Counted from the stretch's first letter, positions 4,717 to 18,416 are shown. The stretch is DNA of 64,000 bases from a virus (IMGVR_UViG_3300028591_000006:64001-128000), one strand, 5' to 3'. Translations and numbers: made by a program. Notes: generated by a model not told the origin, from the sequence alone.

Positions 4717-6177
4717 TTACTCGATAACGAACTTAAGCATTGAATTTTCGAATGCACGGGTACCACCAAGCATACAACCCATACCCTGAATAGAGTGCAG
4801 GTCATCCATAGCAAGAGGGTTTGTAGCGTAGAGAGAAATGAATGAACCTGTAAGATAAGATGCATCCATATCATCACGCTTGTATCCCATAAGTGCGGTA
4901 TCTTCATCGAAGTCCTGGTTCTTAAGAACCTTGAAACGATTGAAGAGTGTACCGGCAACATAAGGTCCGATTGGTTCAGCAGAGTAAGAGTTAGCTGACC
5001 AGATATCCTTGCTGTTGTAGAAGTTAGCAGAAAGAGATTCGATAATGTTCATCAACTTAGAACCTGCAACAATCCAGTTAGCACCAGAACGTGCAATGTT
5101 CTTACGAATTTCGTTGCTTGCTTCAATGATTGACTGAAGAACAGACATGTTATGTTCAATCTGTGAAACTCCAGATGGAAGGATTGAATTCCATGTTGCT
5201 GTACCTTCTGCACGAGCGAGCATTTCGTCAAACATATTACAGCTGATTTCCTTGTTAATCAGACCACCAAGGCTTGTAGAAAGAACCTGGTCGATATCAT
5301 ATCCGTTGAGAACCTGCTTTGCAGCATAGAAGTCATCAAGAGAATATGTTGAGCGGAGTCTGTAAGGATTTGCTGTGATTGTCTTAGACTTCCATTCAAG
5401 AATAATCTGAGCAGGTTTCTTACCACCAACATAGTTATCAGGTGTTGCACCCCAGTCATAGCGGTATTTGATAGAAACTTCAGCACCACTTGCAGCGGCA
5501 TTGAGTGTAATTGCAACATCACCACTCTCGTAGTCTACTGTACCTGAATCAATTACATTAAGAACAGGAGTAATCTGTCCTTTTCCGTCATCAAGTGTGA
5601 ATGCGTTAGCAACACCAGAAACTGTGATTTCAAGTGTGTTAGGGAGCATTGTTCCTTCAGGAGCAGTAAATGTTACATCTGTTCCAGATACAGTTGCATC
5701 AGCACCTACCTTGTTTGTTGTGTAAGTGTTATCCTTAGCCCAGTTTGTTGCACCAAGAAGAGCTGTACCCTTTGTGATACCGTTGCGGTTTTCGTTAGCG
5801 GTAATCTGTGGATAGAAGATTGGTGATTCTTTTGTTGGCATTGGCTGAACGCCGCAAACTTCTGTGTAAGCGAAGTTTGGAATCAAAATAGAATAGAGGT
5901 TGTAAAGGATAGAAATTGGATTGTCTACCTTTGAAATGTCTGATACGGCAGACTTAATTTCTTCTTTTGATTTCTTGCCGGTAGTCAGCATTACGTTTGT
6001 AACCTGCTGAAGAGAGTTCTTAAGAACTGCCTCTTTTTCCTTAGACATCTTTGTTCCCCAGCGTTTTGCATATGCGTCTCTTGACTGTGCAATGAGATTG
6101 TTATGCAAAGGGTCAACTGAAGAATTAATCTGTGTAATGGTTGAGTTGAGTTTAGCCTGTGCTTCTTCTCTTGTCAT
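4717..6177 (-). CDS. gp23: Major capsid protein, T4 gp23-like, with inserted beta-rich domain
   Basis: VCGVQPM..P..IFY motif, EINKEI, ANWIV.., motif order of gp23 family; 486 aa; near prohead protease. Confidence 0.9.
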   Translation of the reverse strand: MTREEAQAKLNSTITQINSSVDPLHNNLIAQSRDAYAKRWGTKMSKEKEAVLKNSLQQVTNVMLTTGKKSKEEIKSAVSDISKVDNPISILYNLYSILIPNFAYTEVCGVQPMPTKESPIFYPQITANENRNGITKGTALLGATNWAKDNTYTTNKVGADATVSGTDVTFTAPEGTMLPNTLEITVSGVANAFTLDDGKGQITPVLNVIDSGTVDYESGDVAITLNAAASGAEVSIKYRYDWGATPDNYVGGKKPAQIILEWKSKTITANPYRLRSTYSLDDFYAAKQVLNGYDIDQVLSTSLGGLINKEISCNMFDEMLARAEGTATWNSILPSGVSQIEHNMSVLQSIIEASNEIRKNIARSGANWIVAGSKLMNIIESLSANFYNSKDIWSANSYSAEPIGPYVAGTLFNRFKVLKNQDFDEDTALMGYKRDDMDASYLTGSFISLYATNPLAMDDLHSIQGMGCMLGGTRAFENSMLKFVIE

Positions 6178-8811: not shown

Positions 8812-11661
8812 TTACTTATTCCAGCGTTTGAATGCTTCAGGAGTACAAGGATTACCCCAGGTACTTCGTGTCTTTTCAGAAATCACACCGTCTCTTTCAA
8901 GTCCGTCCTTATACGATTCCCAATCCTGTTGCATTTCATAATAATCATTCCACTGTCCGGCAGCCTTAAAATCCTGTACAGCCTGTCGGAAAGTAAGACC
9001 AGATGTTACAGATTCACGGGAATTGTCAATCTTATGATACATTGTTTCGCCATTAGAGAAACGTGCTGTTACACCAAGTTTCTGCCATCCGTAATCTTTT
9101 ACAAGAGTATCGAGATAAGTATTAATTTTTGCTGCAAGATTATCAAATTCGGCATCTGACAAATCTTCGGTATTTCCACCTTCTTTTATCTCAATCCAGA
9201 TACCTTCATAGTATCCGTCACGGATTTTAATACAGAAAGGTGGGGCATAATCTGGGTCACGATAATCATCATAAAGCGGAATATCCATTTCAGTTGCAAG
9301 GTCTGTGGCATTATCAATTTCATCTCTATATTCAAGAGAATCAAGGTCATAATCACGTTCCTCTGTGTCTACATCATTTTCTTCATCATATACATAGTTC
9401 TCAGCAACATATGTTACAAGTGGGAAATCATATCCATAAACATTATCATTGCTGCCGAAGTTTGATGTTCCTGACTTAATAAGACGTTTAGATTGTATTT
9501 TCATTTTCTTTTCTCCTTTCTTACCTGACTGAATATTTTCCGTTCCATTCCATAAGTAATCCGGGTCAATTACTACATCAAATCTGTTTCCAAACTCAGG
9601 ATTTATACCCCAGATAAAACTTTCTGAATTTAATGACATATCATCAATCCAATAAGAATTAAATCCGCTCGGCTCTTCTTCTTCCGCATACAGATTAAAT
9701 GCAAAACCACTTGGAATGGCAAAAGGTGCTTCATTAGATGGAATTTCTTCAGCAACTGATTCCGCAATAGATTTAAGACCTTCTGGATAAATTGTCAGGG
9801 TGTGACCAAAATCGTGTTGAAAGAAATCATCCTGACACATCTCTATGAATTCTTCATCTGTATCACGATGATATACCTCATAAGCGTCTGGCCAATTATC
9901 ACCTTCTTCTCTTTCGAGATATTTTAACCACTGGTCAAATCCAGCACGAGTATAAAGAGTTCCATCATCGGCAAGAAGTAGGGGTTCGGTAAAACTTATT
10001 CCGATGTCACCAATCTTTTCTTCTACTTCATCCATATCATATTCCTGGTATTCCCAGCTGCCATTTGCAGATTTAATTACTTTCATATTCTTATCTCCTT
10101 TTGATGATGTCAGGCAGATTTTTTCAAATCCACTCATGGCATCCCAGTCTTCAAGCAAATCATTATCATCAAGAATGTTATAGACTTTATTCAGTAATGG
10201 AATGTCATCTTTAAGAATTCTCTTATTGATAGTTCTGTAATCCTGTTTATCATCAATAACATAGAAAAGCAAATCATCAAGCTGCTTTAATTCTTCATCG
10301 CTCAAAGAATTTCTTACAACATCATATTTGGTAAAGTCTTCCTCTTCACCATACGCTTTAGTAATATAACCGAGAACGATTGATATACCATCTCTTTCAC
10401 CTTCGCTGAGAGATGCAGACGATTGTATTTTCATATTATTTCTCCTTGAAGAACCGATGTTTTTCTTAGAAGATGTAACCTCATTAAAGGCTTTAAGTGG
10501 CGGAGCTTTTACACCTTCCGGTAAACCATTTGGATATAAATGCTTATTAGCATAAACATCATATTCATGATTCTTCATCTGTTCGATAGCATATTCGAGT
10601 TTTGTAGAGAGTGATTTGATATCTCTTTCCCTGAAAGAATCATCTTTTTTCCATTTCTCAGCAGCAAAAGTATATTGTTTTTCAGCAACAGTTTGTTTGT
10701 TATGAAATACTGTGAACCATGACGAATTAAAAGAACTACCGTGTAAGGTTGTGTATAAACTCCACCCATTCTTAAAATAAGCTGTCACTGAAATTTCAGG
10801 TATACCACCATTAATGCGTCTGCTTAAATGTATATCTGCTCCGTAAGGTTTTAACAAATCCTCAATAACTTGTAACATCTCTCTTTCAGCTTTATCATAC
10901 ACATCAACTGTTTCTAAACTAGAATAATCTATTGCCGATTTAATAATATTATTCATAATCTCAAATCCTTCTTTGTACTGTTTCTGATATTCAGTCCAGG
11001 CATCACCAAGACCATCTATAGCCTCAGCCATATTACCAACTTCGCCAAGGTTCCATTCCTCATCATAACAGAATTTCTTGGCTGAGTTATAATCTCTCTC
11101 GGTCATATCACCAAACCGTTCTGTAAGCTGTTCAAGGTAATAGTCTTTATAGTCTTCACGTGTTTTCATATTTCCACCTTTCAATGCACTTTCAATAACA
11201 TCCCAGTCTTCTTCCGGATAATTTGCAACTCCATAAAGCTGCCCTTCAACTCCCAAATCCTGGAGAAGAATTCCATCAGTAATCTTGTAAGCCGATACAT
11301 CTTCAATATCTACACCATAGGTATCAGCCACATCTTCCGGATTATCACAAGCCCAGATTGCGTAATTGAAATTGTCTTTTGAGATTCCATATTCGGTAAG
11401 TTTGTTTATGATATTGTCTACGAGAGCATAGATGGCATCTTCATCTGCTGCAATGCTCTCAGGGTCTACATTGTCTGTAACTGAGTCAAAGTCAACTTCC
11501 GGGTAAAGACGCTGAAGGTCGTTTATCACTCCGTCATAGTTTCTGACCTGACCATCCTGAAACATTTCCCATGCAAGTACATTGCGTACAGAAGTGAATG
11601 AATCAAGATTAGATATGATATCGCTGCGATAGACTGTCTTATTTATACCTGTTGTTTCCAT
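8812..11661 (-). CDS. 949-aa acidic polyprotein with five internal in-frame RBS+ATG; IKS-motif family
   Basis: Internal KGGNMKT, KEGFEIMNNIIKSA, RRNNMKIQSSA, KGDKNMKVIKSA, KKGEKKMKIQSK; late promoter 11666-11675. Confidence 0.8.
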   Translation of the reverse strand: METTGINKTVYRSDIISNLDSFTSVRNVLAWEMFQDGQVRNYDGVINDLQRLYPEVDFDSVTDNVDPESIAADEDAIYALVDNIINKLTEYGISKDNFNYAIWACDNPEDVADTYGVDIEDVSAYKITDGILLQDLGVEGQLYGVANYPEEDWDVIESALKGGNMKTREDYKDYYLEQLTERFGDMTERDYNSAKKFCYDEEWNLGEVGNMAEAIDGLGDAWTEYQKQYKEGFEIMNNIIKSAIDYSSLETVDVYDKAEREMLQVIEDLLKPYGADIHLSRRINGGIPEISVTAYFKNGWSLYTTLHGSSFNSSWFTVFHNKQTVAEKQYTFAAEKWKKDDSFRERDIKSLSTKLEYAIEQMKNHEYDVYANKHLYPNGLPEGVKAPPLKAFNEVTSSKKNIGSSRRNNMKIQSSASLSEGERDGISIVLGYITKAYGEEEDFTKYDVVRNSLSDEELKQLDDLLFYVIDDKQDYRTINKRILKDDIPLLNKVYNILDDNDLLEDWDAMSGFEKICLTSSKGDKNMKVIKSANGSWEYQEYDMDEVEEKIGDIGISFTEPLLLADDGTLYTRAGFDQWLKYLEREEGDNWPDAYEVYHRDTDEEFIEMCQDDFFQHDFGHTLTIYPEGLKSIAESVAEEIPSNEAPFAIPSGFAFNLYAEEEEPSGFNSYWIDDMSLNSESFIWGINPEFGNRFDVVIDPDYLWNGTENIQSGKKGEKKMKIQSKRLIKSGTSNFGSNDNVYGYDFPLVTYVAENYVYDEENDVDTEERDYDLDSLEYRDEIDNATDLATEMDIPLYDDYRDPDYAPPFCIKIRDGYYEGIWIEIKEGGNTEDLSDAEFDNLAAKINTYLDTLVKDYGWQKLGVTARFSNGETMYHKIDNSRESVTSGLTFRQAVQDFKAAGQWNDYYEMQQDWESYKDGLERDGVISEKTRSTWGNPCTPEAFKRWNK

Positions 11662-11772
11662 AAGAAAATATATAAATCAGAACAGCATACTTCCAAGGTA
11701 TTTATAATTGCATATAAGGACTTCATCAGTCTTATTATTGTCTACTCCATGACTTGAGTATTTCATATAAAT

Positions 11773-12219
11773 TCATTTTGTTTCCTTTAAGAAATCTAAA
11801 GAATCATCAACCATCTTTTGTCTTTCTTCTACAGACATGTCATTCCATCGGGGTTTTCCTTGGATTCCTAATTGAAGGAATATTGCCATAAGAACTTGCT
11901 TTGATATGCTGTTTCCTGATTGTTTATAGAGTTGACTCTTACTGTTCACCTTTGCAGCTTTGTTGAAATCCTCATCCGAGAATCCCATAAGTCTCCATGT
12001 CTCATTCTCAGTTAACTTACGGATAGCATATTTCTTACCCATTTCTTTATCTCCTTCTACGACCGGAAGTATAGCAGTCTTCTTACCTTCCGGGCGTGTT
12101 GTTATAGTCGGACATAATCCGCTCTTATCTACAGTTTTATTAAACGCATTTATCGTATCACCCGGTTTACACTCATTACTGAGTAATGTATCCCAGGCTT
12201 GTTCATAAAATTCATACAT
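11773..12219 (-). CDS. C5-cytosine methyltransferase C-terminal fragment (last TRD-like module plus motifs IX-X)
   Basis: LCPTITTRP module then IRKLT..E.WRLMGF..(IX) and LYKQSGNSI(X); internal AAGGAG-ATG at 12042. Confidence 0.9.
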   Translation of the reverse strand: MYEFYEQAWDTLLSNECKPGDTINAFNKTVDKSGLCPTITTRPEGKKTAILPVVEGDKEMGKKYAIRKLTENETWRLMGFSDEDFNKAAKVNSKSQLYKQSGNSISKQVLMAIFLQLGIQGKPRWNDMSVEERQKMVDDSLDFLKETK

Positions 12220-12427
12220 CTTCTTTAATGATAGAATCTTCCATTTCTTCAAGAATCATTATATCAAGAAACGACATTGTTGTAAGGGTTGGACAGATTT
12301 CAGGTGCTCTTGCTCCCCACGAACGAATATCAGAATATCTTGCCTTTACGGAATGCTTCTCATATCCTTTTCGTATCTGCTTACCGAATTCATTTCTTTC
12401 CTGTCGTAACAGATATATCTTCTTCAT
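12212..12427 (-). CDS. Free-standing TRD-like mini-ORF of split methyltransferase
   Basis: ICPTLTT motif; stop overlaps next start (ATGTATGA). Confidence 0.7.
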   Translation of the reverse strand: MKKIYLLRQERNEFGKQIRKGYEKHSVKARYSDIRSWGARAPEICPTLTTMSFLDIMILEEMEDSIIKEDV

Positions 12428-12572
12428 ATTCCAGTACCATATTATCTTTAGCAGCTGATGTTATGGTATTGCACAATCCGGTATAATTTATTTCGAGTTT
12501 CTGCTCAAACTTTTTATCAGAATTATCTTCCGGAGTTCTGCCACGCATTGCTACTATCAGATATTCTTTCAT
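12390..12572 (-). CDS. Free-standing TRD-like mini-ORF
   Basis: EQKLEIN..GLCNTITSAAKDNMVLE; ATGA overlap with HNH stop. Confidence 0.75.
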   Translation of the reverse strand: MKEYLIVAMRGRTPEDNSDKKFEQKLEINYTGLCNTITSAAKDNMVLEYEEDISVTTGKK

Positions 12573-12895
12573 ATTTCCTTTCTCATCTTTGCAGCGTGAC
12601 TCTGATTCTCATCATTGGTACACCACTCAAGATTACTTACCTTATTATTCAGTTTATCAAAATCTATATGGTTTATCTGCTCCTTATTGTCCGGATTCGG
12701 AATAAAAGCCAGAGCCACAAGACGATGAACTTTCTTATGCTTACGCACATTATTCTTGTATAAATCAACAAGGGCATAACCTTTTTCAGTAATAAATGGT
12801 TTCAGAAGTTTACCACGTTTAACACCATAAACTTCACCATCCTTAGATACACAGTACAGACCTTCATACCCCGGAATGTCTTTCCACTTTTTCAT
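12569..12895 (-). CDS. NUMOD4-HNH homing endonuclease inserted in the TRD array
   Basis: WKDIPGYEGLY.VS..G.V (NUMOD4) plus VHRLVA.AFI.N....INHID..K.NN...NLEW (HNH). Confidence 0.92.
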   Translation of the reverse strand: MKKWKDIPGYEGLYCVSKDGEVYGVKRGKLLKPFITEKGYALVDLYKNNVRKHKKVHRLVALAFIPNPDNKEQINHIDFDKLNNKVSNLEWCTNDENQSHAAKMRKEI

Positions 12896-12982
12896 CTTCT
12901 TTCTCCCGCTCAATCAATATGTAAGGCATGTGCTCGCCATCAGATTACCATAAAAGATAATCTCACTTTTCTTCTCGTTCAT
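12887..12982 (-). pseudogene. Degenerate TRD-like module (internal deletion/frameshift)
   Basis: MNEKKSEIIFYGNL in one frame, HMPYILIERE in another, only about 30 codons in total. Confidence 0.4.
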
Positions 12983-12998
12983 CAATTTCCACCAGATA

Positions 12999-13136
12999 CT
13001 ATGGATGAAGTACAGTCGAAACGGTAACACTCACTGTATCAGAGCTGTACACCCTATCCTGATTATAATATTGCGTTCCACCATTGCTGACCTTTTCACC
13101 AAGTCCGCCAAGCATTACCGGTTCAATATCATTCAT
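12999..13136 (-). CDS. TRD-like mini-ORF ending at TAG, probably prematurely
   Basis: Not in ORF track; MNDIEPVMLGGLGEK...QDRVYSS..VSVTVST VLHP*YLVEIDE; GGTGG SD, ATGAATGA overlap. Confidence 0.65.
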   Translation of the reverse strand: MNDIEPVMLGGLGEKVSNGGTQYYNQDRVYSSDTVSVTVSTVLHP

Positions 13137-13317
13137 GACATTCCACCATTATTTTTGGCTGCAAGTTACCACCTGTACAACAAGGGATGGTAGGACAGAT
13201 ACCCCATTTGGAATAAACACGATTAGCACTTTCAAAGGTATGGTCAATCGTGTGGTCCATACAGGCGAGAATTATAACTTCAGGTGAAACTTCTCTCTCT
13301 AAGCAATTTTCATTCAT
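13129..13317 (-). CDS. TRD-like mini-ORF, in frame, (AG)4 near start
   Basis: ANRVYSKWGICPTIPCCTGGNLQPKIMVE; (AG)4 at 13293-13300. Confidence 0.75.
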   Translation of the reverse strand: MNENCLEREVSPEVIILACMDHTIDHTFESANRVYSKWGICPTIPCCTGGNLQPKIMVECHE

Positions 13318-13618
13318 ATTCACAAACTATTACGCAATTACTATTATCAGCTTCAATACCTTTCCAGTATCTTGCCAAAACCGTATTTGCAATCTCCTTA
13401 TTTATATCAATTATAGAAATATCATTAACACTTAAAAACTTACCGTTCAAACTTCTTCTAATGGTTGCTGGGTAATTACGGCATTTGAGCAATAAGTTCC
13501 CATTCCTTTCCAATCCCTTGCAAGCAAGGTCATCGCTATGTCCGTTTCCTTCAGAAATTTCGTTCCCACTTCCGAAAGATAACAGGTCATTACATTGTTT
13601 GTTTGTAGTATTATTCAA
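13310..13618 (-). CDS. Dual-frame TRD ORF; the 0-frame ends in a TRD-like module
   Basis: C-terminal IDINKEIANTVLARYWKG; TTG start overlapping upstream stop, GGAG SD. Confidence 0.65.
   Translation of the reverse strand: MNNTTNKQCNDLLSFGSGNEISEGNGHSDDLACKGLERNGNLLLKCRNYPATIRRSLNGKFLSVNDISIIDINKEIANTVLARYWKGIEADNSNCVIVCEYE
13447..13614 (-). CDS. Hidden TRD-like module in the +1 frame of ORF 13310-13618
   Basis: Hand translation: ..MTCYLSEVGTKFLKETDIAMTLLARDWKGMGTYCSNAV..*, clearly paralogous to neighbouring TRDs. Confidence 0.7.
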   Translation of the reverse strand: MILQTNNVMTCYLSEVGTKFLKETDIAMTLLARDWKGMGTYCSNAVITQQPLEEV

Positions 13619-13874
13619 TTTCTATAACTCCATTGCTTGGTATCTGTCCGCTACCAAAGCCTTTATAATCCCTTGCAAGAATTGTCATTGCAACATCTAC
13701 ATCTACTTTATAGACTTTTCTGTAGTTACAATAACAACACCATTTCCTATGCTCTGAATCTTGCTTATTCCTCTGTTTTCCCTTGCGATTATACAGTTCG
13801 CAACTTTCAGCAGCTTTGGATTCTTGATACTCAAATCTATCGGAATAATTACTCTCTCTAGCCGTTTCTGTCAT
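13611..13874 (-). CDS. Dual-frame TRD ORF; the 0-frame ends in a TRD-like module
   Basis: C-terminal VDVAMTILARDYKGFGSGQIPSNGVIE; TAATG overlap, AAGGTGG SD. Confidence 0.65.
   Translation of the reverse strand: MTETARESNYSDRFEYQESKAAESCELYNRKGKQRNKQDSEHRKWCCYCNYRKVYKVDVDVAMTILARDYKGFGSGQIPSNGVIEIE
13703..13870 (-). CDS. Hidden TRD-like module in the +1 frame of ORF 13611-13874 (no own start)
   Basis: Hand translation: QKRLERVIIPIDLSIKNPKLLKVANCIIARENRGISKIQSIGNGVV..*. Confidence 0.7.
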   Translation of the reverse strand, partial: QKRLERVIIPIDLSIKNPKLLKVANCIIARENRGISKIQSIGNGVVIVTTEKSIK

Positions 13875-14068
13875 TATTCCACCTTTACAAGCACATCCGC
13901 TATGCCGCCCTTACTTGCTGTAATGGTCTTGCAGATTCCATAGATTGAGAAAACAGAACCGTCATATCCGTCATGCAGACCATATATGTTGCCAAGATAG
14001 ACAGCATTTTCAAAGTCTTTTTCCTGAGTCCTCTCTCTCTGATTATCTGCAACTTCTTTCTTACTCAT
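13874..14068 (-). CDS. First TRD-like mini-ORF, in frame, (AG)5 near start
   Basis: YLGNIYG...GSVFSIYGICKTITASKGG; ATGA overlap with catalytic fragment; (AG)5 at 14031-14040. Confidence 0.75.
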   Translation of the reverse strand: MSKKEVADNQRERTQEKDFENAVYLGNIYGLHDGYDGSVFSIYGICKTITASKGGIADVLVKVE

Positions 14069-14799
14069 TCAAGTTTTCCATCATCAATAAGCTGCTGAAT
14101 AAGTTTCTCAGCTTTCTCCGATTTTATAAAATAAGAATCAGCCACTTCTTCCTGAAGGAAGTCTTTCATAACATACTTCAAAGGAATCTTTTTAGGGAAC
14201 TCAAATTCTATAAAATCTTTTGAAAGAATTGATACACCAAAACAGCGTTCACGATTCTGCGGAATACCAAAGTCCTTGGCATTCAAATCTTCGTAATAAG
14301 TATAATATCCACGAGATTTAAGATAATCGAGCCATTTATTAAGTTCGGGAAGATTGCTCTCAGAATGACATTGCGGAACATTTTCCCAGATACAAATATC
14401 AGGTAACTGTTCATCCGGAAGTTCTGTAAGAAGTCTTTTTACTTCAAAAAGTAAAGAAGATGTTGTTCCGCTACCTTCTTTCATACCTTCCATTTTACCG
14501 GCCACTGAAAGCGATTGGCAGGGCCAAGAATAAAACATCACATATGTATATTTATCCTTATCTACAATTTCCAAGTCAGAACCATGAATCTTAGTTATAT
14601 CAAGAACTGGAAATTCTGTACCATGAATTGCATTATAAGATTTAATTGCAAACTCATCAAACTCAACCAACTTGTAGCGTTCAAAATCTACACCTATAGC
14701 TTTCATAGCCATAGATTGGGAACCCACACCTCCGAATAATTCTAGCAATCTAATTTTCTTTTTGATTTCCGGTTGTGGCAGGTCAAATAAAAAACCCAT
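14065..14799 (-). CDS. dcm: C5-cytosine DNA methyltransferase N-terminal catalytic fragment (motifs I-VIII)
   Basis: LLELFGGVG (I), SWPCQSLSVAG (IV, catalytic PC), IWENV (VI), LNAKDFGIPQNRER (VIII). Confidence 0.95.
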   Translation of the reverse strand: MGFLFDLPQPEIKKKIRLLELFGGVGSQSMAMKAIGVDFERYKLVEFDEFAIKSYNAIHGTEFPVLDITKIHGSDLEIVDKDKYTYVMFYSWPCQSLSVAGKMEGMKEGSGTTSSLLFEVKRLLTELPDEQLPDICIWENVPQCHSESNLPELNKWLDYLKSRGYYTYYEDLNAKDFGIPQNRERCFGVSILSKDFIEFEFPKKIPLKYVMKDFLQEEVADSYFIKSEKAEKLIQQLIDDGKLE

Positions 14800-14883
14800 T
14801 TCATATCTCCATATATTTTCAGTATATCTTAATAATAGAAAAACCCGCCTTCTCAGACGGGTTTGTTACAGAATGAAAAATAT

Positions 14884-15408
14884 TTATTTTCTAACAGACA
14901 TGCCACCAACCCTATCATACATGGGGTCGGAATCAAATTCTTCAGGGAAATCAATTCCAACAGTAATAGCATCAACAAGGGCTTTTCCAATATCACCCCA
15001 TTTATCAGCAAACTTTCCTGACTGATTACCGGTATAGAACTCAGTATCATAAATAGCGAGCTGCACCCTACCATTATCTCGCCATGTATCATCTGCCCTA
15101 CCCTGTAATTCCTGAAGAGCCTTAATGTCATTAGGATTATTCCTGTCGCCCCAGAAAGTAAGAACATAAGTATCATCATCATAACTTTCTGCAACGGCAT
15201 TACCAAACATCTTAACAAAGACATTTTCAATAAGAACATCTAATTCACGACTAGCTTCATTGAGTCTGTCACCATCTTTATCCCAGTCAAAATCCACTCC
15301 ATTATCTTCACGATAATTTTCTTCAAAAACATCCGTAAGGGTTGTAATATCTACCCCAATCATGATTCTGTCCGGATTATCATAATAATCTGATTTGATA
15401 ACTTTCAT
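14884..15408 (-). CDS. Acidic protein starting MKVIKSD, IKS-motif family
   Basis: N-terminus matches internal module starts of the 949-aa protein. Confidence 0.7.
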   Translation of the reverse strand: MKVIKSDYYDNPDRIMIGVDITTLTDVFEENYREDNGVDFDWDKDGDRLNEASRELDVLIENVFVKMFGNAVAESYDDDTYVLTFWGDRNNPNDIKALQELQGRADDTWRDNGRVQLAIYDTEFYTGNQSGKFADKWGDIGKALVDAITVGIDFPEEFDSDPMYDRVGGMSVRK

Positions 15409-15420
15409 ATTTATCTCCTA

Positions 15421-16332
15421 TTAAAACATTGGAATGGATTCATCATCTGCATCATATACAGGTGGTTCCTGTGGATTTCCATTACCTTCTCCAAGAAGTC
15501 CAAGTTCACGACCAGCTTCTTCAATATGCTCCCACATAACACCATAAATATACATACGGTAAGGATTAACATAAATTAAATCCGGATTTCTTGCAGATAC
15601 ACCGTGTGAACGATAAACATTATTTGCCATAAGACCTGATGGTGCCCATTTCTCGCTATAAGGAATGCTTGTCTGCATCTGATATTCAATTTCATTATTA
15701 CCTAACCAGAGACAACCAGTTTCAAAATAAGGTTCGCCATCACAGAAAGCATGATATCCATATCCGTCAGTATCAAATTGATTTATATCTTCAAGATGCC
15801 CATCATCAATCGCCTTGTTTACAGCCTCTACCAAATCATCAGCGGATTTGAAACCATGTACAATGTCTTCACTTGTGTAAAGCTGCTCATGGAAAAGTTT
15901 CTGAGCATTGTCTTCGATATCAAAAGGATTTGCATAGAATTCAACATCAGCTGCCCCAGCTTCATACTTGTACATACTGTCAAGATATTCCGGACTTTCT
16001 GCAAATTCTTCTTCACCTTCCACCCATTCATCTACAGCTTCATACATAGCTTCAAGTGCAGTATGGTCAGCATCATAATCATTTAGATATTCATTAAAAT
16101 AATATTCAACATCAAAAGGCTGATTACGATATTCATTAAGTTTGGTTACAAGTTCATCCTGAGTTTCAAGCCAGTCGGCAAACTCATTGATAAACTCATC
16201 ATAGTAATGTTCTTTGTCTTCATTACCTGTTTCTGCAAACCAGTCAACATCAAAAATACCGGCTGTTTCAAGGGCATTCCTGATATTGTTGTATGCCGGG
16301 TCATATGGACTTAATTCCGATTTAATTAACAT
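15421..16332 (-). CDS. Highly acidic protein starting MLIKSE, IKS-motif family
   Basis: Start re-placed at ATG 16332 behind AAGGAG; downstream of protease. Confidence 0.7.
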   Translation of the reverse strand: MLIKSELSPYDPAYNNIRNALETAGIFDVDWFAETGNEDKEHYYDEFINEFADWLETQDELVTKLNEYRNQPFDVEYYFNEYLNDYDADHTALEAMYEAVDEWVEGEEEFAESPEYLDSMYKYEAGAADVEFYANPFDIEDNAQKLFHEQLYTSEDIVHGFKSADDLVEAVNKAIDDGHLEDINQFDTDGYGYHAFCDGEPYFETGCLWLGNNEIEYQMQTSIPYSEKWAPSGLMANNVYRSHGVSARNPDLIYVNPYRMYIYGVMWEHIEEAGRELGLLGEGNGNPQEPPVYDADDESIPMF

Positions 16333-16401
16333 ATGCAACTCCTTATAAGTTTTACTATCTGTAATAATAAACGATTGAATACAGATAGTCAAGCAAAATC
16401 T

Positions 16402-17274
16402 TTATTTTTTGAAAAGTTTCTTAAGGTCTTTTGTATCAGGATATTTCTTAAGGGAACTCTTGATTGCCTTTGTACTTGGAAATCTGCTCTTAAGATTAAC
16501 TGAGCTTGCAAGAGGGAATGTCTTGGATTTATCGGCAAGGTGCAGACTGTTGAACATTGCTGCAATCCAGTCATTTGTAGGATTCTTTTCATAGGCTTCT
16601 TCAATTGCAGAAGTAATCTGCTCACGAAGACCTTTTTCTAGGTCAAGAACTGACTGTGTGAGGTCAGGAGCATTATCACTAGACGTACATAATTGTAAAC
16701 AACGTGGCACGGCAGGCACCGAAACCGTATCTTGCGAAACGGCAAGATATGTATCTTCGTCAACACGTGTGAGTCCATTTCCAATATCAATCAAATCACC
16801 AAATCCACGTGAAGATGTTCCAATCATACCTGTTTTTGCAAGTGAATATATGAGATTGCCCTTTGGAGTATCCATTAAATCAAGGTTGGAAAGTACCAAA
16901 TTATCATCACCAATCCAAAAGTCGTTTATGCGAATCACGACATTTTCAAGCAATACTTCCGAACTATCCCTATGACAATCTTCACCCCAGAAACAATGAT
17001 TATCCAAAGCAGCTTTAATAAAAGGATTTTCACGAATAGATTCCCAAAGTTTCTTACTAAAGACCATATTATTGAGAGTTGGTATGTCATAATATGCAAT
17101 AGGCATATTCTTCCAGGAATAAAGAACACCTGTATTGTCCATTTCTGGTTTGTAACCTTGCAAGATATAATCTTCTTGTTTCATCAAACCAGATTTAATC
17201 AGTTTACTTTTAGTATCAGAAAAAGTCTTAGCAGAAAACCAATTACCTTTAATCCATACATTATGTTGATTCAT
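16402..17274 (-). CDS. gp21: Prohead (capsid maturation) protease, T4 gp21-like
   Basis: PTLNNMVF, WGEDCH, DTPKG.L...L...G.IGTSSRGFG signature; late promoter 17311-17320. Confidence 0.9.
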   Translation of the reverse strand: MNQHNVWIKGNWFSAKTFSDTKSKLIKSGLMKQEDYILQGYKPEMDNTGVLYSWKNMPIAYYDIPTLNNMVFSKKLWESIRENPFIKAALDNHCFWGEDCHRDSSEVLLENVVIRINDFWIGDDNLVLSNLDLMDTPKGNLIYSLAKTGMIGTSSRGFGDLIDIGNGLTRVDEDTYLAVSQDTVSVPAVPRCLQLCTSSDNAPDLTQSVLDLEKGLREQITSAIEEAYEKNPTNDWIAAMFNSLHLADKSKTFPLASSVNLKSRFPSTKAIKSSLKKYPDTKDLKKLFKK

Positions 17275-17321: not shown

Positions 17322-18416
17322 TTATTTCTTCAACATACCTCGAACAAAGTTTTCCCCTGGACATTCTTTAGAACGAACATTCTTCTCACCATTATTCCAA
17401 TACAATAAACCCTTACTATCTTTAGGATGAAATTGTCCTTTCACAAAATTTTCCCCTGGACAATTAACAGCAAAAATATTTATTTCTCCATTTGTCCATC
17501 GCTCACCTTTCAAATCTGGAAATGTCCTGCCATATCTAAATCCTTTAGGACATATTGCTACAAGTATGTCTGATTTTCCATTTGTATACCAATGTTTATG
17601 AGTATGCTCATTTTCGCCTAATCTTCCACGAGTGAATCCATCAGGAGCTTCCTTAGCATGAATTTCAATCTCACCATTATTCCAGTAATACAATCCTGTA
17701 TTAACATCTCTTAATCTTTGCTTAATAGCATCACCTTTCTCACCTTCATACATCTTGCGTTTAATTTCAATTTGCTGTTTCTTTTGTTCTTCGGTCATAG
17801 GCACACCTTTATTCCAAGGTGTATGACCCATTAATGTTTTAGAAATCTTTCGTTTAGTTTCTTCAGATTTTGGACCTTTATTTATACCTTTACAACGTTC
17901 CGACATTTTTCTTTTCTGTTCTTCGGTAAAATGTTTTCCTCTCCATCGGCTACCCATAGCATAACGTTGTTCAGGTGTATATTTCATACCTCTTGTACCA
18001 CTATGCAATGACATTAACTTCTTGGTTTCTTCTGTATGATGTCTTCCTAAGAATGTAGGTCCACCTTCTCCGCCATCAGTCATATTGTATCCATAACATC
18101 TATCGTTCGAATGGTACATCATAATAAAGAACTTTTCCCAATAATCGAAGTCATAAGTTTCCAAGATTACTTCTGCTGTAAAATTCTCATATCCATATTT
18201 ATGAATTGCATTCTTTAACAACGTACCTTCACCAACATTCGATAGTAAATGTCCTCTCTTAAATCTACTGACAATATTCCTAGACTGTCCGATATAGACT
18301 TTGTGATTTATGATGTTTTCAATTTTATAAACACCTGAAATAATAACATTCGGCATTTTCTTAATTTCAAGGATTGAAATGGAATTGGTTAAAATTCTAT
18401 AATTATTATTAGACAT
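17322..18416 (-). CDS. Free-standing GIY-YIG homing endonuclease with NUMOD3 and WxNG..CP repeats
   Basis: ISGVYKIENIINHKVYIGQS..; GYNMTDGGEG; HTEETKK/KSEETKRKIS repeats. Confidence 0.92.
   Translation of the reverse strand: MSNNNYRILTNSISILEIKKMPNVIISGVYKIENIINHKVYIGQSRNIVSRFKRGHLLSNVGEGTLLKNAIHKYGYENFTAEVILETYDFDYWEKFFIMMYHSNDRCYGYNMTDGGEGGPTFLGRHHTEETKKLMSLHSGTRGMKYTPEQRYAMGSRWRGKHFTEEQKRKMSERCKGINKGPKSEETKRKISKTLMGHTPWNKGVPMTEEQKKQQIEIKRKMYEGEKGDAIKQRLRDVNTGLYYWNNGEIEIHAKEAPDGFTRGRLGENEHTHKHWYTNGKSDILVAICPKGFRYGRTFPDLKGERWTNGEINIFAVNCPGENFVKGQFHPKDSKGLLYWNNGEKNVRSKECPGENFVRGMLKK

What the first reader, a model, noticed from the sequence alone, without database searches (positions are those of the whole stretch)
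11773..14799. C5 methyltransferase split into a catalytic fragment, an array of about 11 TRD-like mini-modules and a C-terminal fragment
Seen: motifs I-VIII end at 14065 and motifs IX-X start about 2 kb later. Between them, about 45-65-aa paralogous modules repeat a [CA]xT[IL]x core (ICKTITA, VANCIIAR, VAMTILAR, IAMTLLAR, IANTVLAR, ICPTIP, VSVTVST, LCNTITS, ICPTLTT, LCPTITT). Nearly all are joined by stop/start overlaps (ATGA, TAATG, TTGAATAA, ATGAATGA, ATGTATGA), often with SD. Established: Bacillus phage multispecific MTases (SPR, phi3T, rho11) carry several TRDs in one chain, and M.AquI is a two-subunit MTase. Inference: a multi-subunit MTase with exchangeable TRD peptides that tunes protection against many host restriction systems. 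I do not know of this architecture being described.
Basis: partly seen in the sequence, partly recalled or inferred. Interest (0 to 1): 0.9.

Follow-up and report, generated by a model that had tools for sequence, protein, structure and literature searches.

The report
Repeat-gated split phage cytosine methylase
A large rumen phage encodes its DNA cytosine methylase as a catalytic piece, a tail piece and about ten small separate DNA-recognition modules, four of them behind slippery DNA repeats that set which module is read; this probably lets the phage population vary which DNA sites it protects from host restriction enzymes.

Summary
On the minus strand, a 244-aa C5-methyltransferase fragment (motifs I-VIII) and a 159-aa fragment (one TRD plus motifs IX-X) flank 2.3 kb. 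That stretch holds ten TRD-like modules in three frames, one broken module and a NUMOD4-HNH gene.

It is neither an assembly artefact nor a decaying gene:
- A second assembly reproduces every base.
- Relatives with 52-80% identity in the catalytic fragment keep the split; only 8 of 128 loci are continuous.
- The modules evolve under purifying selection in their own frames (dN/dS 0.11-0.21, against 1.1-1.8 in the other frames).

Four mini-ORFs carry a simple-sequence repeat just after the start codon. Repeat length selects TRD B, TRD C or stop, and likewise TRD D, TRD E or stop. All three phases of the B|C repeat occur in related phages. Otherwise identical relatives differ only in repeat units.

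My best reading is a phase-variable, multi-subunit, multispecific methyltransferase. Trans-acting TRD peptides are supported by a three-chain model but are not shown. I found no paper describing this. The scan has noted similar repeat-switched split methyltransferases on other phage DNA; this window is the most fragmented case.

The parts
14065..14799 (-). Alpha subunit, 244 aa. It holds motifs I (FGGVG), IV (PCQ), VI (ENV), VIII (QNRER) and the proximal variable region, and ends ...DGKLE-TGA.
   Evidence: PF00145 positions 2-207, E 1.8e-37. The same C-terminus DGKL[DE]+stop occurs in 7 lineage loci. 87 of the best 120 homologues are 241-265 aa.
13874..14068 (-). Mini-ORF A, 64 aa (TRD core SVFSIYGICKTITASKGG). 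Its ATG overlaps the alpha stop (ATGA). The (AG)5 gate lies at 14031-14040; one unit more or less takes TRD A out of frame.
   Evidence: Core invariant in 6 relatives. pN/pS 0.00-0.17. In-chain in P0126.
13611..13874 (-). B|C selector ORF. ATG 13874 has an AAAGGTGGA SD, and the (AG)4 gate lies at 13852-13859. As sequenced it reads an 87-aa product: a leader followed by TRD C (VAMTILARDYKG). With (AG)5 it would read TRD B (VANCIIARENRG, about 13870..13706, other frame). With (AG)3 or (AG)6 it stops at once.
   Evidence: Related contigs carry (AG)5 (X3, L166) and (AG)6 (X2, L170). L003 and L004 have an (AGCA)14/13 repeat at the same place, reading C and B respectively.
13310..13618 (-). D|E selector ORF. 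TTG 13618 is followed by the (ACAA)3 gate at 13595-13606. As sequenced it reads a 102-aa product: a leader followed by TRD E (IANTVLARYWKG). With (ACAA)2 it would read TRD D (IAMTLLARDWKG, 13590..13447). With (ACAA)4 it stops.
   Evidence: L003/L004 have (ACAA)8 and read D; L167 has (AACA)5 and reads E; L170 has (AG)10 and reads E. In X2, X3 and X5 the segment 13300-13623 is replaced by other sequence of 199 nt.
13129..13323 (-). Mini-ORF F, 62-64 aa (NRVYSKWGICPTIPCCTGG). Starts at ATG 13317 or GTG 13323. The AG-repeat gate (9 nt) lies at 13292-13300; plus or minus one unit gives early stops.
   Evidence: pN/pS 0.20-0.43.
12999..13136 (-). Mini-ORF G, 45 aa (DRVYSSDTVSVTVSTV), cut short by an amber codon at 13001-12999.
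   Evidence: The codon is TGG in X2 and X3 (13000 T>C), and the frame stays open in L003, L166 and L167. 6 synonymous and 0 non-synonymous differences to L166. No suppressor tRNA in the genome.
12917..13030 (-). Broken module: N-terminal remnant MNEKKSEIIFYGNL and C-terminal remnant HMPYILIE in different frames.
   Evidence: L166 has the intact 66-aa module. X2 has 79 extra nt at 12939/12940.
12569..12913 (-). NUMOD4 + HNH_3 endonuclease ORF (108 aa from ATG 12895), coupled by ATGA to mini-ORF H.
   Evidence: Pfam E 6.7e-12 and 3.3e-10. 99% identical in L166, with 6 synonymous and 1 non-synonymous differences. Short form also present in L167.
12390..12572 (-). Mini-ORF H, 60 aa (VAMRGR...LCNTITSAAKDN type TRD); no repeat gate.
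   Evidence: pN/pS 0.17-0.36. The same TRD type is in-chain in L020 and L009.
12212..12427 (-). Mini-ORF I, 71 aa (RNEFGKQIRKGYE...ICPTLTT type TRD). It overlaps H by 38 nt.
   Evidence: pN/pS 0.18-0.32 to L003, L166 and L170. The same TRD type is in-chain in L020.
11773..12252 (-). Beta fragment: TRD J (LCPTITT) plus motif IX (IRKLTENETWRLMGF) and motif X (QSGNSI). Starts at TTG 12252 or ATG 12219. An internal AAGGAG-ATG at 12042 could give a TRD-less 89-aa IX-X protein.
   Evidence: PF00145 positions 224-322, E 1.6e-11. An internal SD+ATG just before motif IX is present in WIN, L004, L170 and L167.
14841..14864 (-). Terminator-like hairpin upstream of the alpha gene. None was found inside the array, so the locus is probably one transcription unit.
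   Evidence: Consensus scan only.

Best explanation
This is one late operon, set inside the head-gene block of a T4-like rumen phage, that encodes a split, multispecific, repeat-gated cytosine-5 DNA methyltransferase.

Shown:
- The catalytic alpha piece (motifs I-VIII) always ends at DGKL[DE].
- The beta piece carries one TRD plus motifs IX-X.
- Between them lie TRD modules that are individually open reading frames under purifying selection.
- Four of these start with a short leader and a simple-sequence repeat. Repeat length selects TRD B, TRD C or stop; TRD D, TRD E or stop; and A on/off and F on/off.
- These repeats differ between related phages. In relatives with long tracts they are the only differences between otherwise identical genomes.

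Inferred:
- Each translated TRD mini-protein docks between alpha and a IX-X beta piece, possibly the TRD-less form made from the internal start at 12042. This rebuilds the small domain of a canonical C5 methyltransferase and gives one target specificity.
- Replication slippage at the repeats makes progeny that methylate different sets of sites.
- That hedges between hosts whose Type II enzymes are blocked by a mark and hosts whose Type IV enzymes attack it.
- The HNH gene and recombination at module borders move cassettes between co-infecting phages.
For: Not an artefact:
- Zero differences to an independent contig.
- Other genes in the window are intact.

The split is conserved:
- 87 of the best 120 N-fragment homologues are 241-265 aa.
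- L003, L004, L166, L167 and L170 share the layout.
- Only 8 of 128 distinct loci are continuous, and none of those has a repeat at the N-domain end.

Selection:
- Pooled TRD dN/dS is 0.11-0.21 in the module's own frame, against 1.09-1.77 in the other frames.
- TRD A is invariant over its core.

TRD identity:
- A and C are in-chain in P0126.
- The beta chain of L020 aligns to M.HhaI residues 234-317.

Repeat gating:
- 3 of the genome's 5 AG/CT runs of 8 nt or more lie in this 2.3 kb.
- Repeat density is 1.59 per kb in the arrays of the related loci, against 0.21 per kb in their flanks.
- The window has (AG)4, against (AG)5 in X3 and L166 and (AG)6 in X2 and L170.
- L003 and L004 are identical over 4.3 kb apart from one AGCA unit, which swaps TRD C for TRD B.
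- In 14 near-identical pairs, nearly all internal indels are whole repeat units or 1-2 G; 4 pairs have zero substitutions.
- Different repeat units occupy the same junction in different phages.
- After the repeat, 73 of 82 loci have two long open frames and one short.

Assembly in trans:
- Complex prediction with alpha + TRD-less beta + TRD A gave score 0.88, best of 3 controls 0.01. That mark was reached by 58 of 80 solved complexes and 2 of 110 mismatched pairs.
- The runs agree in at least 78% of contacts, and the partner's pLDDT is at least 65.
- The pass may reflect memory of monomeric methyltransferase structures. It shows fold compatibility, not binding.
- 31 of 37 library representatives matching TRD A are stand-alone proteins of 48-114 aa.
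Against: - There is no expression, protein or methylation data.
- The window's own tracts are short, (AG)4-5 and (ACAA)3, so switching here may be slow. The relatives showing other phases of these tracts are only about 93-95% alike.
- M.SssI cut between the TRD and motif IX ([1-304]+[304-386]) was inactive in fragment complementation (PMC3404938). A free TRD with no covalent link to motif IX has no experimental precedent.
- Several mini-ORFs (A, F, I, J) have no clear SD, and some relatives' modules lack an ATG.
- Two modules in the window are damaged, so not every module is maintained.
- TRD B shows weak constraint (pN/pS 0.44-0.87).
Confidence: 0.7

Rival explanations
1. An M.AquI-like two-subunit enzyme plus a cassette store. 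Only alpha and the J-IX-X beta fragment form an active enzyme. The mini-ORFs are a reservoir of TRD cassettes that work only after recombination places them in the beta (or alpha) chain, as silent pilS copies do in Neisseria.
For: Modules are exchanged as cassettes with borders at junctions: 13300-13623 is replaced, 167 nt are inserted at 14069/14072, and 79 nt at 12939/12940. The window and L166 are 92-99% alike over the array but 63-80% alike over most of the N gene. Relatives carry the same TRD types in-chain. An HNH endonuclease sits in the array. The alpha/beta split has precedent (PMC3404938).
Against: Silent cassettes would need no start codons, no stop/start coupling and no repeat placed 10-30 nt after a start codon. 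They would not need a second frame kept open through the neighbouring TRD. Stand-alone TRD ORFs are conserved in length across at least 30 clusters.
Confidence: 0.15
2. Recoding. The pieces are joined at translation by programmed frameshifting or hopping at the overlaps, giving one long multispecific chain like M.SPRI.
For: Single-chain relatives exist (8 of 128 loci; P0126). The junctions are tight overlaps.
Against: About ten consecutive recoding events would be needed. No slippery heptamers occur at the junctions. The A/B junction has two stops in tandem (TAA TGA). What follows the conserved alpha stop differs in frame and content between relatives. The repeats sit after start codons, not at the stops.
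Confidence: 0.05
3. A decaying multispecific methyltransferase gene: a pseudogene riddled with frameshifts and kept only by chance.
For: The amber codon in G, the internally deleted module and the weakly constrained TRD B show that some decay occurs.
Against: dN/dS is 0.11-0.21 in-frame. The near-identical pairs A-L166, D-L003, E-L003 and G-L166 together show 24 synonymous and 1 non-synonymous differences. The same break points are kept at 52-80% identity of the N fragment.
Confidence: 0.04
4. Assembly or sequencing artefact.
For: None was found; short repeats are error-prone in principle.
Against: An independent contig is identical. Many assemblies from other studies show the same layout. Only four of the junctions have repeats.
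Confidence: 0.01

Closest known systems
Multispecific C5 methyltransferases of Bacillus phages (M.SPRI, M.Phi3TI, M.Rho11sI, M.H2I; from my own knowledge of the Trautner laboratory's work)
   Same: A phage enzyme with one catalytic core and several tandem TRDs of about 40-60 aa between motifs VIII and IX. Each TRD presumably gives its own target.
   Different: Those are single polypeptides with 3-5 TRDs and no repeat switches. Here there are about 10 modules, each its own ORF in one of three frames; the core is split into alpha and beta; and four modules are repeat-gated.
M.AquI, a two-subunit C5 methyltransferase (described in PMC3404938, citing Karreman and de Waard 1990)
   Same: Alpha carries motifs I-VIII plus the proximal variable region. 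Beta carries the distal variable region plus IX-X. They are encoded as adjacent genes.
   Different: M.AquI has two genes and one specificity. Here 2.3 kb of further TRD ORFs and an HNH gene lie between alpha and beta.
Phase-variable DNA methyltransferases (phasevarions; Mycoplasma CpG C5-MTases with poly(G)/poly(GA) tracts, PMC9465063; Type III mod genes, PMC7383803)
   Same: A simple-sequence repeat inside the coding region, with tract length varying between near-identical genomes and shifting the frame.
   Different: Those are bacterial on/off switches of a whole enzyme. Here the switch is in a phage, there are several independent gates, and two gates are three-state selectors between alternative TRDs encoded in overlapping frames.
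Phage contingency loci (T2 agt poly-A tract; bioRxiv 10.1101/2025.10.21.683753 = PMC12633550)
   Same: A hypermutable repeat in a phage DNA-modification gene, read as bet-hedging between restriction systems that attack modified and unmodified DNA.
   Different: That is a homopolymer on/off switch of a glucosyltransferase. The preprint's text does not contain the word 'methyltransferase' and describes no TRD selection or split enzyme.

Membership tests
C5 cytosine DNA methyltransferase (PF00145) | Motifs I, IV (PC), VI (ENV) and VIII in the large domain | tested here: met
   The N fragment matches profile positions 2-207 at E 1.8e-37. FGGVG, PCQ, ENV and QNRER are visible.
C5 cytosine DNA methyltransferase (PF00145) | Motifs IX and X following a variable region | tested here: met
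   The C fragment matches profile positions 224-322 at E 1.6e-11. IRKLT..E..RLMGF and GNS are visible.
C5 cytosine DNA methyltransferase (PF00145) | 5mC formation at defined sites | not testable with these tools
   No methylation data.
Multispecific phage C5 methyltransferases (SPR type) | Several tandem TRDs between motifs VIII and IX | tested here: met
   There are ten modules. The A, C, F, H and I types occur in-chain in relatives.
Multispecific phage C5 methyltransferases (SPR type) | All TRDs and the core in one polypeptide | tested here: not met
   At least 11 separate ORFs in three frames. The split is conserved.
M.AquI-type heterodimeric C5 methyltransferase | Alpha (I-VIII plus proximal variable region) and beta (distal variable region plus IX-X) as separate adjacent genes | tested here: met
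   Both alpha and beta ORFs are present, but they are separated by the array and are not adjacent.
M.AquI-type heterodimeric C5 methyltransferase | The two subunits suffice and give one specificity | not testable with these tools
   Needs reconstitution.
Simple-sequence-repeat contingency locus (phase variation) | A repeat tract inside or just after the start of a coding frame, whose length sets the frame | tested here: met
   Four tracts lie 12-28 nt after the start codons. The frame outcomes were worked out.
Simple-sequence-repeat contingency locus (phase variation) | Tract length varies between otherwise (near-)identical genomes | tested here: met
   For the window's B|C tract, three lengths are seen in relatives that are 93-95% alike. 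For long tracts, L003 against L004 and 14 further pairs, 4 of them with zero substitutions.
Simple-sequence-repeat contingency locus (phase variation) | High-frequency, reversible switching within a population | not testable with these tools
   Only contigs could be laid, not raw reads.
HNH homing endonuclease (NUMOD4 + HNH_3) | Domain content | tested here: met
   Pfam E 6.7e-12 and 3.3e-10.
HNH homing endonuclease (NUMOD4 + HNH_3) | Cleavage of endonuclease-free alleles with co-conversion of flanks | not tested
   Only indirect: the array is mosaic and is most alike to L166 around the HNH gene.

The most novel reading that the evidence does not exclude
Free 45-100-aa TRD mini-proteins, each made from its own repeat-gated ORF, plug in trans into a TRD-less alpha/beta methyltransferase core. 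A single phage operon would then have about 36 heritable but rapidly interconverting methylation-specificity states: two three-state selectors and two on/off gates, on top of the ungated modules. It would be a combinatorial, modular specificity system for a Type II-like methyltransferase, comparable in logic to hsdS shufflons but working by translation frame and subunit exchange.
Probability: 0.45. Interest if true: 0.9.

Novelty: new variant of a known kind. Interest (0 to 1): 0.8.

Why it matters
- If free TRD peptides work in trans, target recognition in C5 methyltransferases can be supplied by a detachable subunit of about 50 aa. That changes how these enzymes are annotated: the mini-ORFs are currently nameless or called pseudogene debris. 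It would also give a natural scaffold for programmable methylation.
- It would be a clear case of a phage contingency locus that switches between alternative specificities, not merely on and off.
- It makes directly testable the idea that phages hedge between restriction systems blocked by methylation and those triggered by it.
- The family is abundant in human-gut and rumen viromes, with hundreds of loci found here. It may therefore shape phage host range in those ecosystems.

Tried and rejected
- A BLAST of the locus against 50,697 GenBank phages found only short HNH matches and no relative.
- A single-protein scan of viral contigs found nothing. The alignment-based scan was needed.
- A profile of TRD A against PDB sequences gave only chance hits.
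- Three long hits in the representative search (P0131, P0145, P0153) are TPR or low-complexity repeat proteins, not methyltransferases.
- Stop-codon reassignment or suppression as the reason for the breaks: the breaks are frame changes, and the genome has only a tRNA-Gln(TTG).
- The sigma-70 promoter scan was no better than shuffles.
- Within-sample repeat heterogeneity could not be measured, because all runs are held as contigs.
- Four full-text searches for phase-variable or repeat-switched phage cytosine methyltransferases, and three on related background, found no paper that describes this architecture.


Full report
WHAT IS THERE

The window is bases 64001-128000 of a 142,789-bp IMG/VR viral contig with direct terminal repeats. 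On the minus strand, ORF 14799..14065 (244 aa) matches Pfam PF00145 at profile positions 2-207 (E 1.8e-37). ORF 12252..11773 (159 aa) matches positions 224-322 (E 1.6e-11).

I call them A to J:
- A 14068..13874
- B, about 13870..13706
- C, the end of ORF 13874..13611
- D 13590..13447
- E, the end of ORF 13618..13310
- F 13323..13129
- G 13136..12999
- H 12572..12390
- I 12427..12212
- J, the first half of the C fragment

There are also remnants of an eleventh module (13030..12917) and a NUMOD4+HNH_3 endonuclease ORF at 12913..12569.

The locus lies inside the head-gene block. A gp21-like prohead protease is at 16402-17274, a GIY-YIG/NUMOD3 endonuclease at 17322-18416, and a gp23-like capsid protein at 4717-6177. 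A terminator-like hairpin precedes the alpha gene, and none lies inside the array.

NOT AN ARTEFACT, NOT DECAY

Other genes in the window are long and intact. A Logan contig of the probable source run (sheep gut metagenome) covers 11700-14860 with no difference.

The split is conserved:
- Of the best 120 homologues of the N fragment (58-100% identity), 87 are 241-265 aa long.
- In seven loci of the window's own lineage the N fragment ends at the same residue...DGKL[DE], followed by TAA or TGA, whatever comes next.
- L003/L004 (75% identity), L166 (77%), L167 (71%) and L170 (68%) all show the same layout: N fragment, a string of small ORFs, C fragment. Four of these also carry an HNH gene in the array.
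- Among 128 distinct loci from viral and metagenome collections, only 8 are continuous genes.

The modules are under purifying selection in their own frames. Pooled over the TRD modules, dN/dS against L003, L166, L167 and L170 is 0.19, 0.21, 0.11 and 0.11. The same nucleotides read in the other two frames give 1.09-1.77. In the most similar pairs (A-L166, D-L003, E-L003, G-L166) there are 24 synonymous and 1 non-synonymous differences. The core of TRD A is invariant in six relatives whose N fragments are 68-77% identical.

Some decay does occur:
- G carries an amber codon that is TGG in X2 and X3; the frame is open at that point in L003, L166 and L167.
- The next module has lost about 79 nt relative to X2 and L166.
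- TRD B is weakly constrained. This may be because its DNA is also read in a second frame.

THE MODULES ARE TRDs

- P0126, a continuous relative, carries in one chain the N domain, an A-type module, a C-type module and motifs IX-X (PF00145 E 3.7e-46).
- In the roughly 55%-identity gut-phage relatives, F-, H- and I-type modules lie in tandem in one beta chain that ends in motifs IX-X.
- The last TRD plus motifs IX-X of the L020 beta chain aligns to M.HhaI residues 234-317.

In L003 and L004, 4.3 kb of sequence is identical except for one AGCA unit in an (AGCA)14/13 tract that begins 12 nt after the ATG of a mini-ORF. With 14 units the ORF reads through to TRD C; with 13 it reads TRD B. The next ORF carries (ACAA)8 in the same position.

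The window has short tracts at the same places:
- (AG)5 at 14031-14040, 28 nt after the ATG of A.
- (AG)4 at 13852-13859, after ATG 13874.
- (ACAA)3 at 13595-13606, after TTG 13618.
- A 9-nt AG tract at 13292-13300, after the start of F.

Three of the genome's five AG/CT runs of 8 nt or more lie in this 2.3 kb of a 142.8-kb genome.

The frame outcomes are as follows:
- B|C gate: n=4 gives a leader plus TRD C (as sequenced), n=5 gives TRD B, and n=3 or 6 gives an immediate stop.
- D|E gate: n=3 gives a leader plus TRD E (as sequenced), n=2 gives TRD D, and n=4 gives a stop.
- A and F are on/off.

All three phases of the window's B|C tract exist in nature. The window has (AG)4, bovine-gut contig X3 and L166 have (AG)5, and X2 and L170 have (AG)6. 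The D|E junction carries (ACAA)3, (ACAA)8, (AACA)5 or (AG)10 in different phages and reads D in some and E in others. The position and effect of the repeat are conserved while the repeat unit itself is not. This points to selection for the switch.

THE WIDER FAMILY

- Repeat density (tetra-, penta- and dinucleotide repeats and poly-G) is 1.59 per kb in the arrays of the related loci, against 0.21 per kb in their flanks.
- 82 of 128 loci have a repeat of at least 4 units at the end of the N domain. There the same B|C selector is fused to the N domain. The observed states are B fused (15), C fused (14), another TRD fused (14) and N only (39).
- 73 of those 82 loci have two long open frames and one short frame after the repeat.
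- None of the 8 continuous genes has such a repeat.
- In 14 near-identical pairs from different samples, almost all internal indels are whole repeat units or 1-2 G in poly-G tracts. Four pairs have no substitution at all.

The long tracts are therefore hypermutable relative to point substitution.

CASSETTE EXCHANGE

- In X2, X3 and X5 the segment 13300-13623, which is the D|E selector bounded by the F repeat and the D|E start, is replaced by 199 nt of other sequence.
- X3 has 167 extra nt exactly at the alpha/A junction.
- The window and L166 are 92-99% alike from the end of the N gene through the array, and most alike around the HNH gene. They are only 63-80% alike over most of the N gene.

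HOW IT MAY WORK

Alpha and beta are an M.AquI-like pair (PMC3404938). Several features fit independent translation of the TRD ORFs: the repeats sit directly after start codons, stop/start overlaps are tight, and the ORFs are individually selected.

An SD plus ATG lies just before motif IX in the window (AAGGAG, ATG 12042), L004, L170 and L167. This could give a TRD-less IX-X protein.

I modelled alpha, this short beta and TRD A as three chains:
- The score was 0.88, with the best of 3 controls at 0.01. That mark was reached by 58 of 80 solved complexes and 2 of 110 mismatched pairs.
- The runs agree in at least 78% of contacts, and the partner's pLDDT is at least 65.
- TRD residues 39-51 and 55-64 touch alpha 175-184 and 206-244 (motif VIII and the proximal variable region), and beta 3-10, 15-19 and 39-44 (motifs IX and X).
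- Because monomeric C5 methyltransferases are solved, this pass may come from memory. It shows that the three pieces can rebuild the canonical fold, not that they bind.

In a library of 1.84 billion cluster representatives, 31 of the 37 proteins that match TRD A are stand-alone proteins of 48-114 aa.

Against trans action, M.SssI cut between the TRD and motif IX was inactive (PMC3404938). I therefore put trans-acting TRD peptides at about even odds. The broader statement, a real, selected, repeat-gated, split multispecific methyltransferase, I put at about 0.7-0.8.

WHAT IS KNOWN

Multispecific phage methyltransferases, two-subunit C5 methyltransferases and fragment complementation (PMC3404938) are all described. 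So are repeat-switched bacterial methyltransferases, including Mycoplasma CpG C5-MTases (PMC9465063, PMC7383803), and since October 2025 phage contingency loci (T2 agt; PMC12633550). I found no paper that combines these, or that describes selection between TRDs in overlapping frames, or stand-alone TRD ORFs.

Earlier notes of this scan report similar repeat-switched split methyltransferases in other gut phages, and the repeat gates in this very stretch. I did not test the notes on other genomes. Those notes are not publications. This window is the most fragmented example I saw: alpha is never fused, and every TRD is its own ORF.

Noticed in passing
window 17322-18416 (-): GIY-YIG + NUMOD3 homing-endonuclease gene next to the prohead protease gene. 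It is a second free-standing endonuclease within 5 kb of the HNH gene in the array.
   Followed up: no
L009-L084 and others, about 220 nt into the N-domain gene (e.g. L009:5250, L011:5218): Most of the roughly 55%-identity relatives carry a 12-21-nt (ACTT)n/(TTAC)n tract inside the catalytic N domain itself. It may be an on/off gate for the whole enzyme. The window lacks it.
   Followed up: no
L166:2371-2589; L167:4450-4986: L166 has an extra TRD ORF directly after the HNH gene that the window lacks. L167 has a second, full-length (178-aa) NUMOD4-HNH gene immediately upstream of its N fragment.
   Followed up: no
G000:C1:20335-20425 (outside the window): The only tRNA in the genome is a 91-nt tRNA-Gln(TTG), unusually long and possibly intron-containing.
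   Followed up: no
window 8812-11661 (-), 14884-16392 (-): Very acidic proteins without Pfam matches (949, 174 and 323 aa) flank the methyltransferase locus inside the head module. They may be scaffold or internal head proteins.
   Followed up: no
L005 / relative of P0003; L170: Relatives carry further DNA-modification or anti-restriction genes next to the locus: a PAPS_reduct-family gene, a MethyltransfD12 (Dam-like) gene and an S-AdoMet lyase.
   Followed up: no
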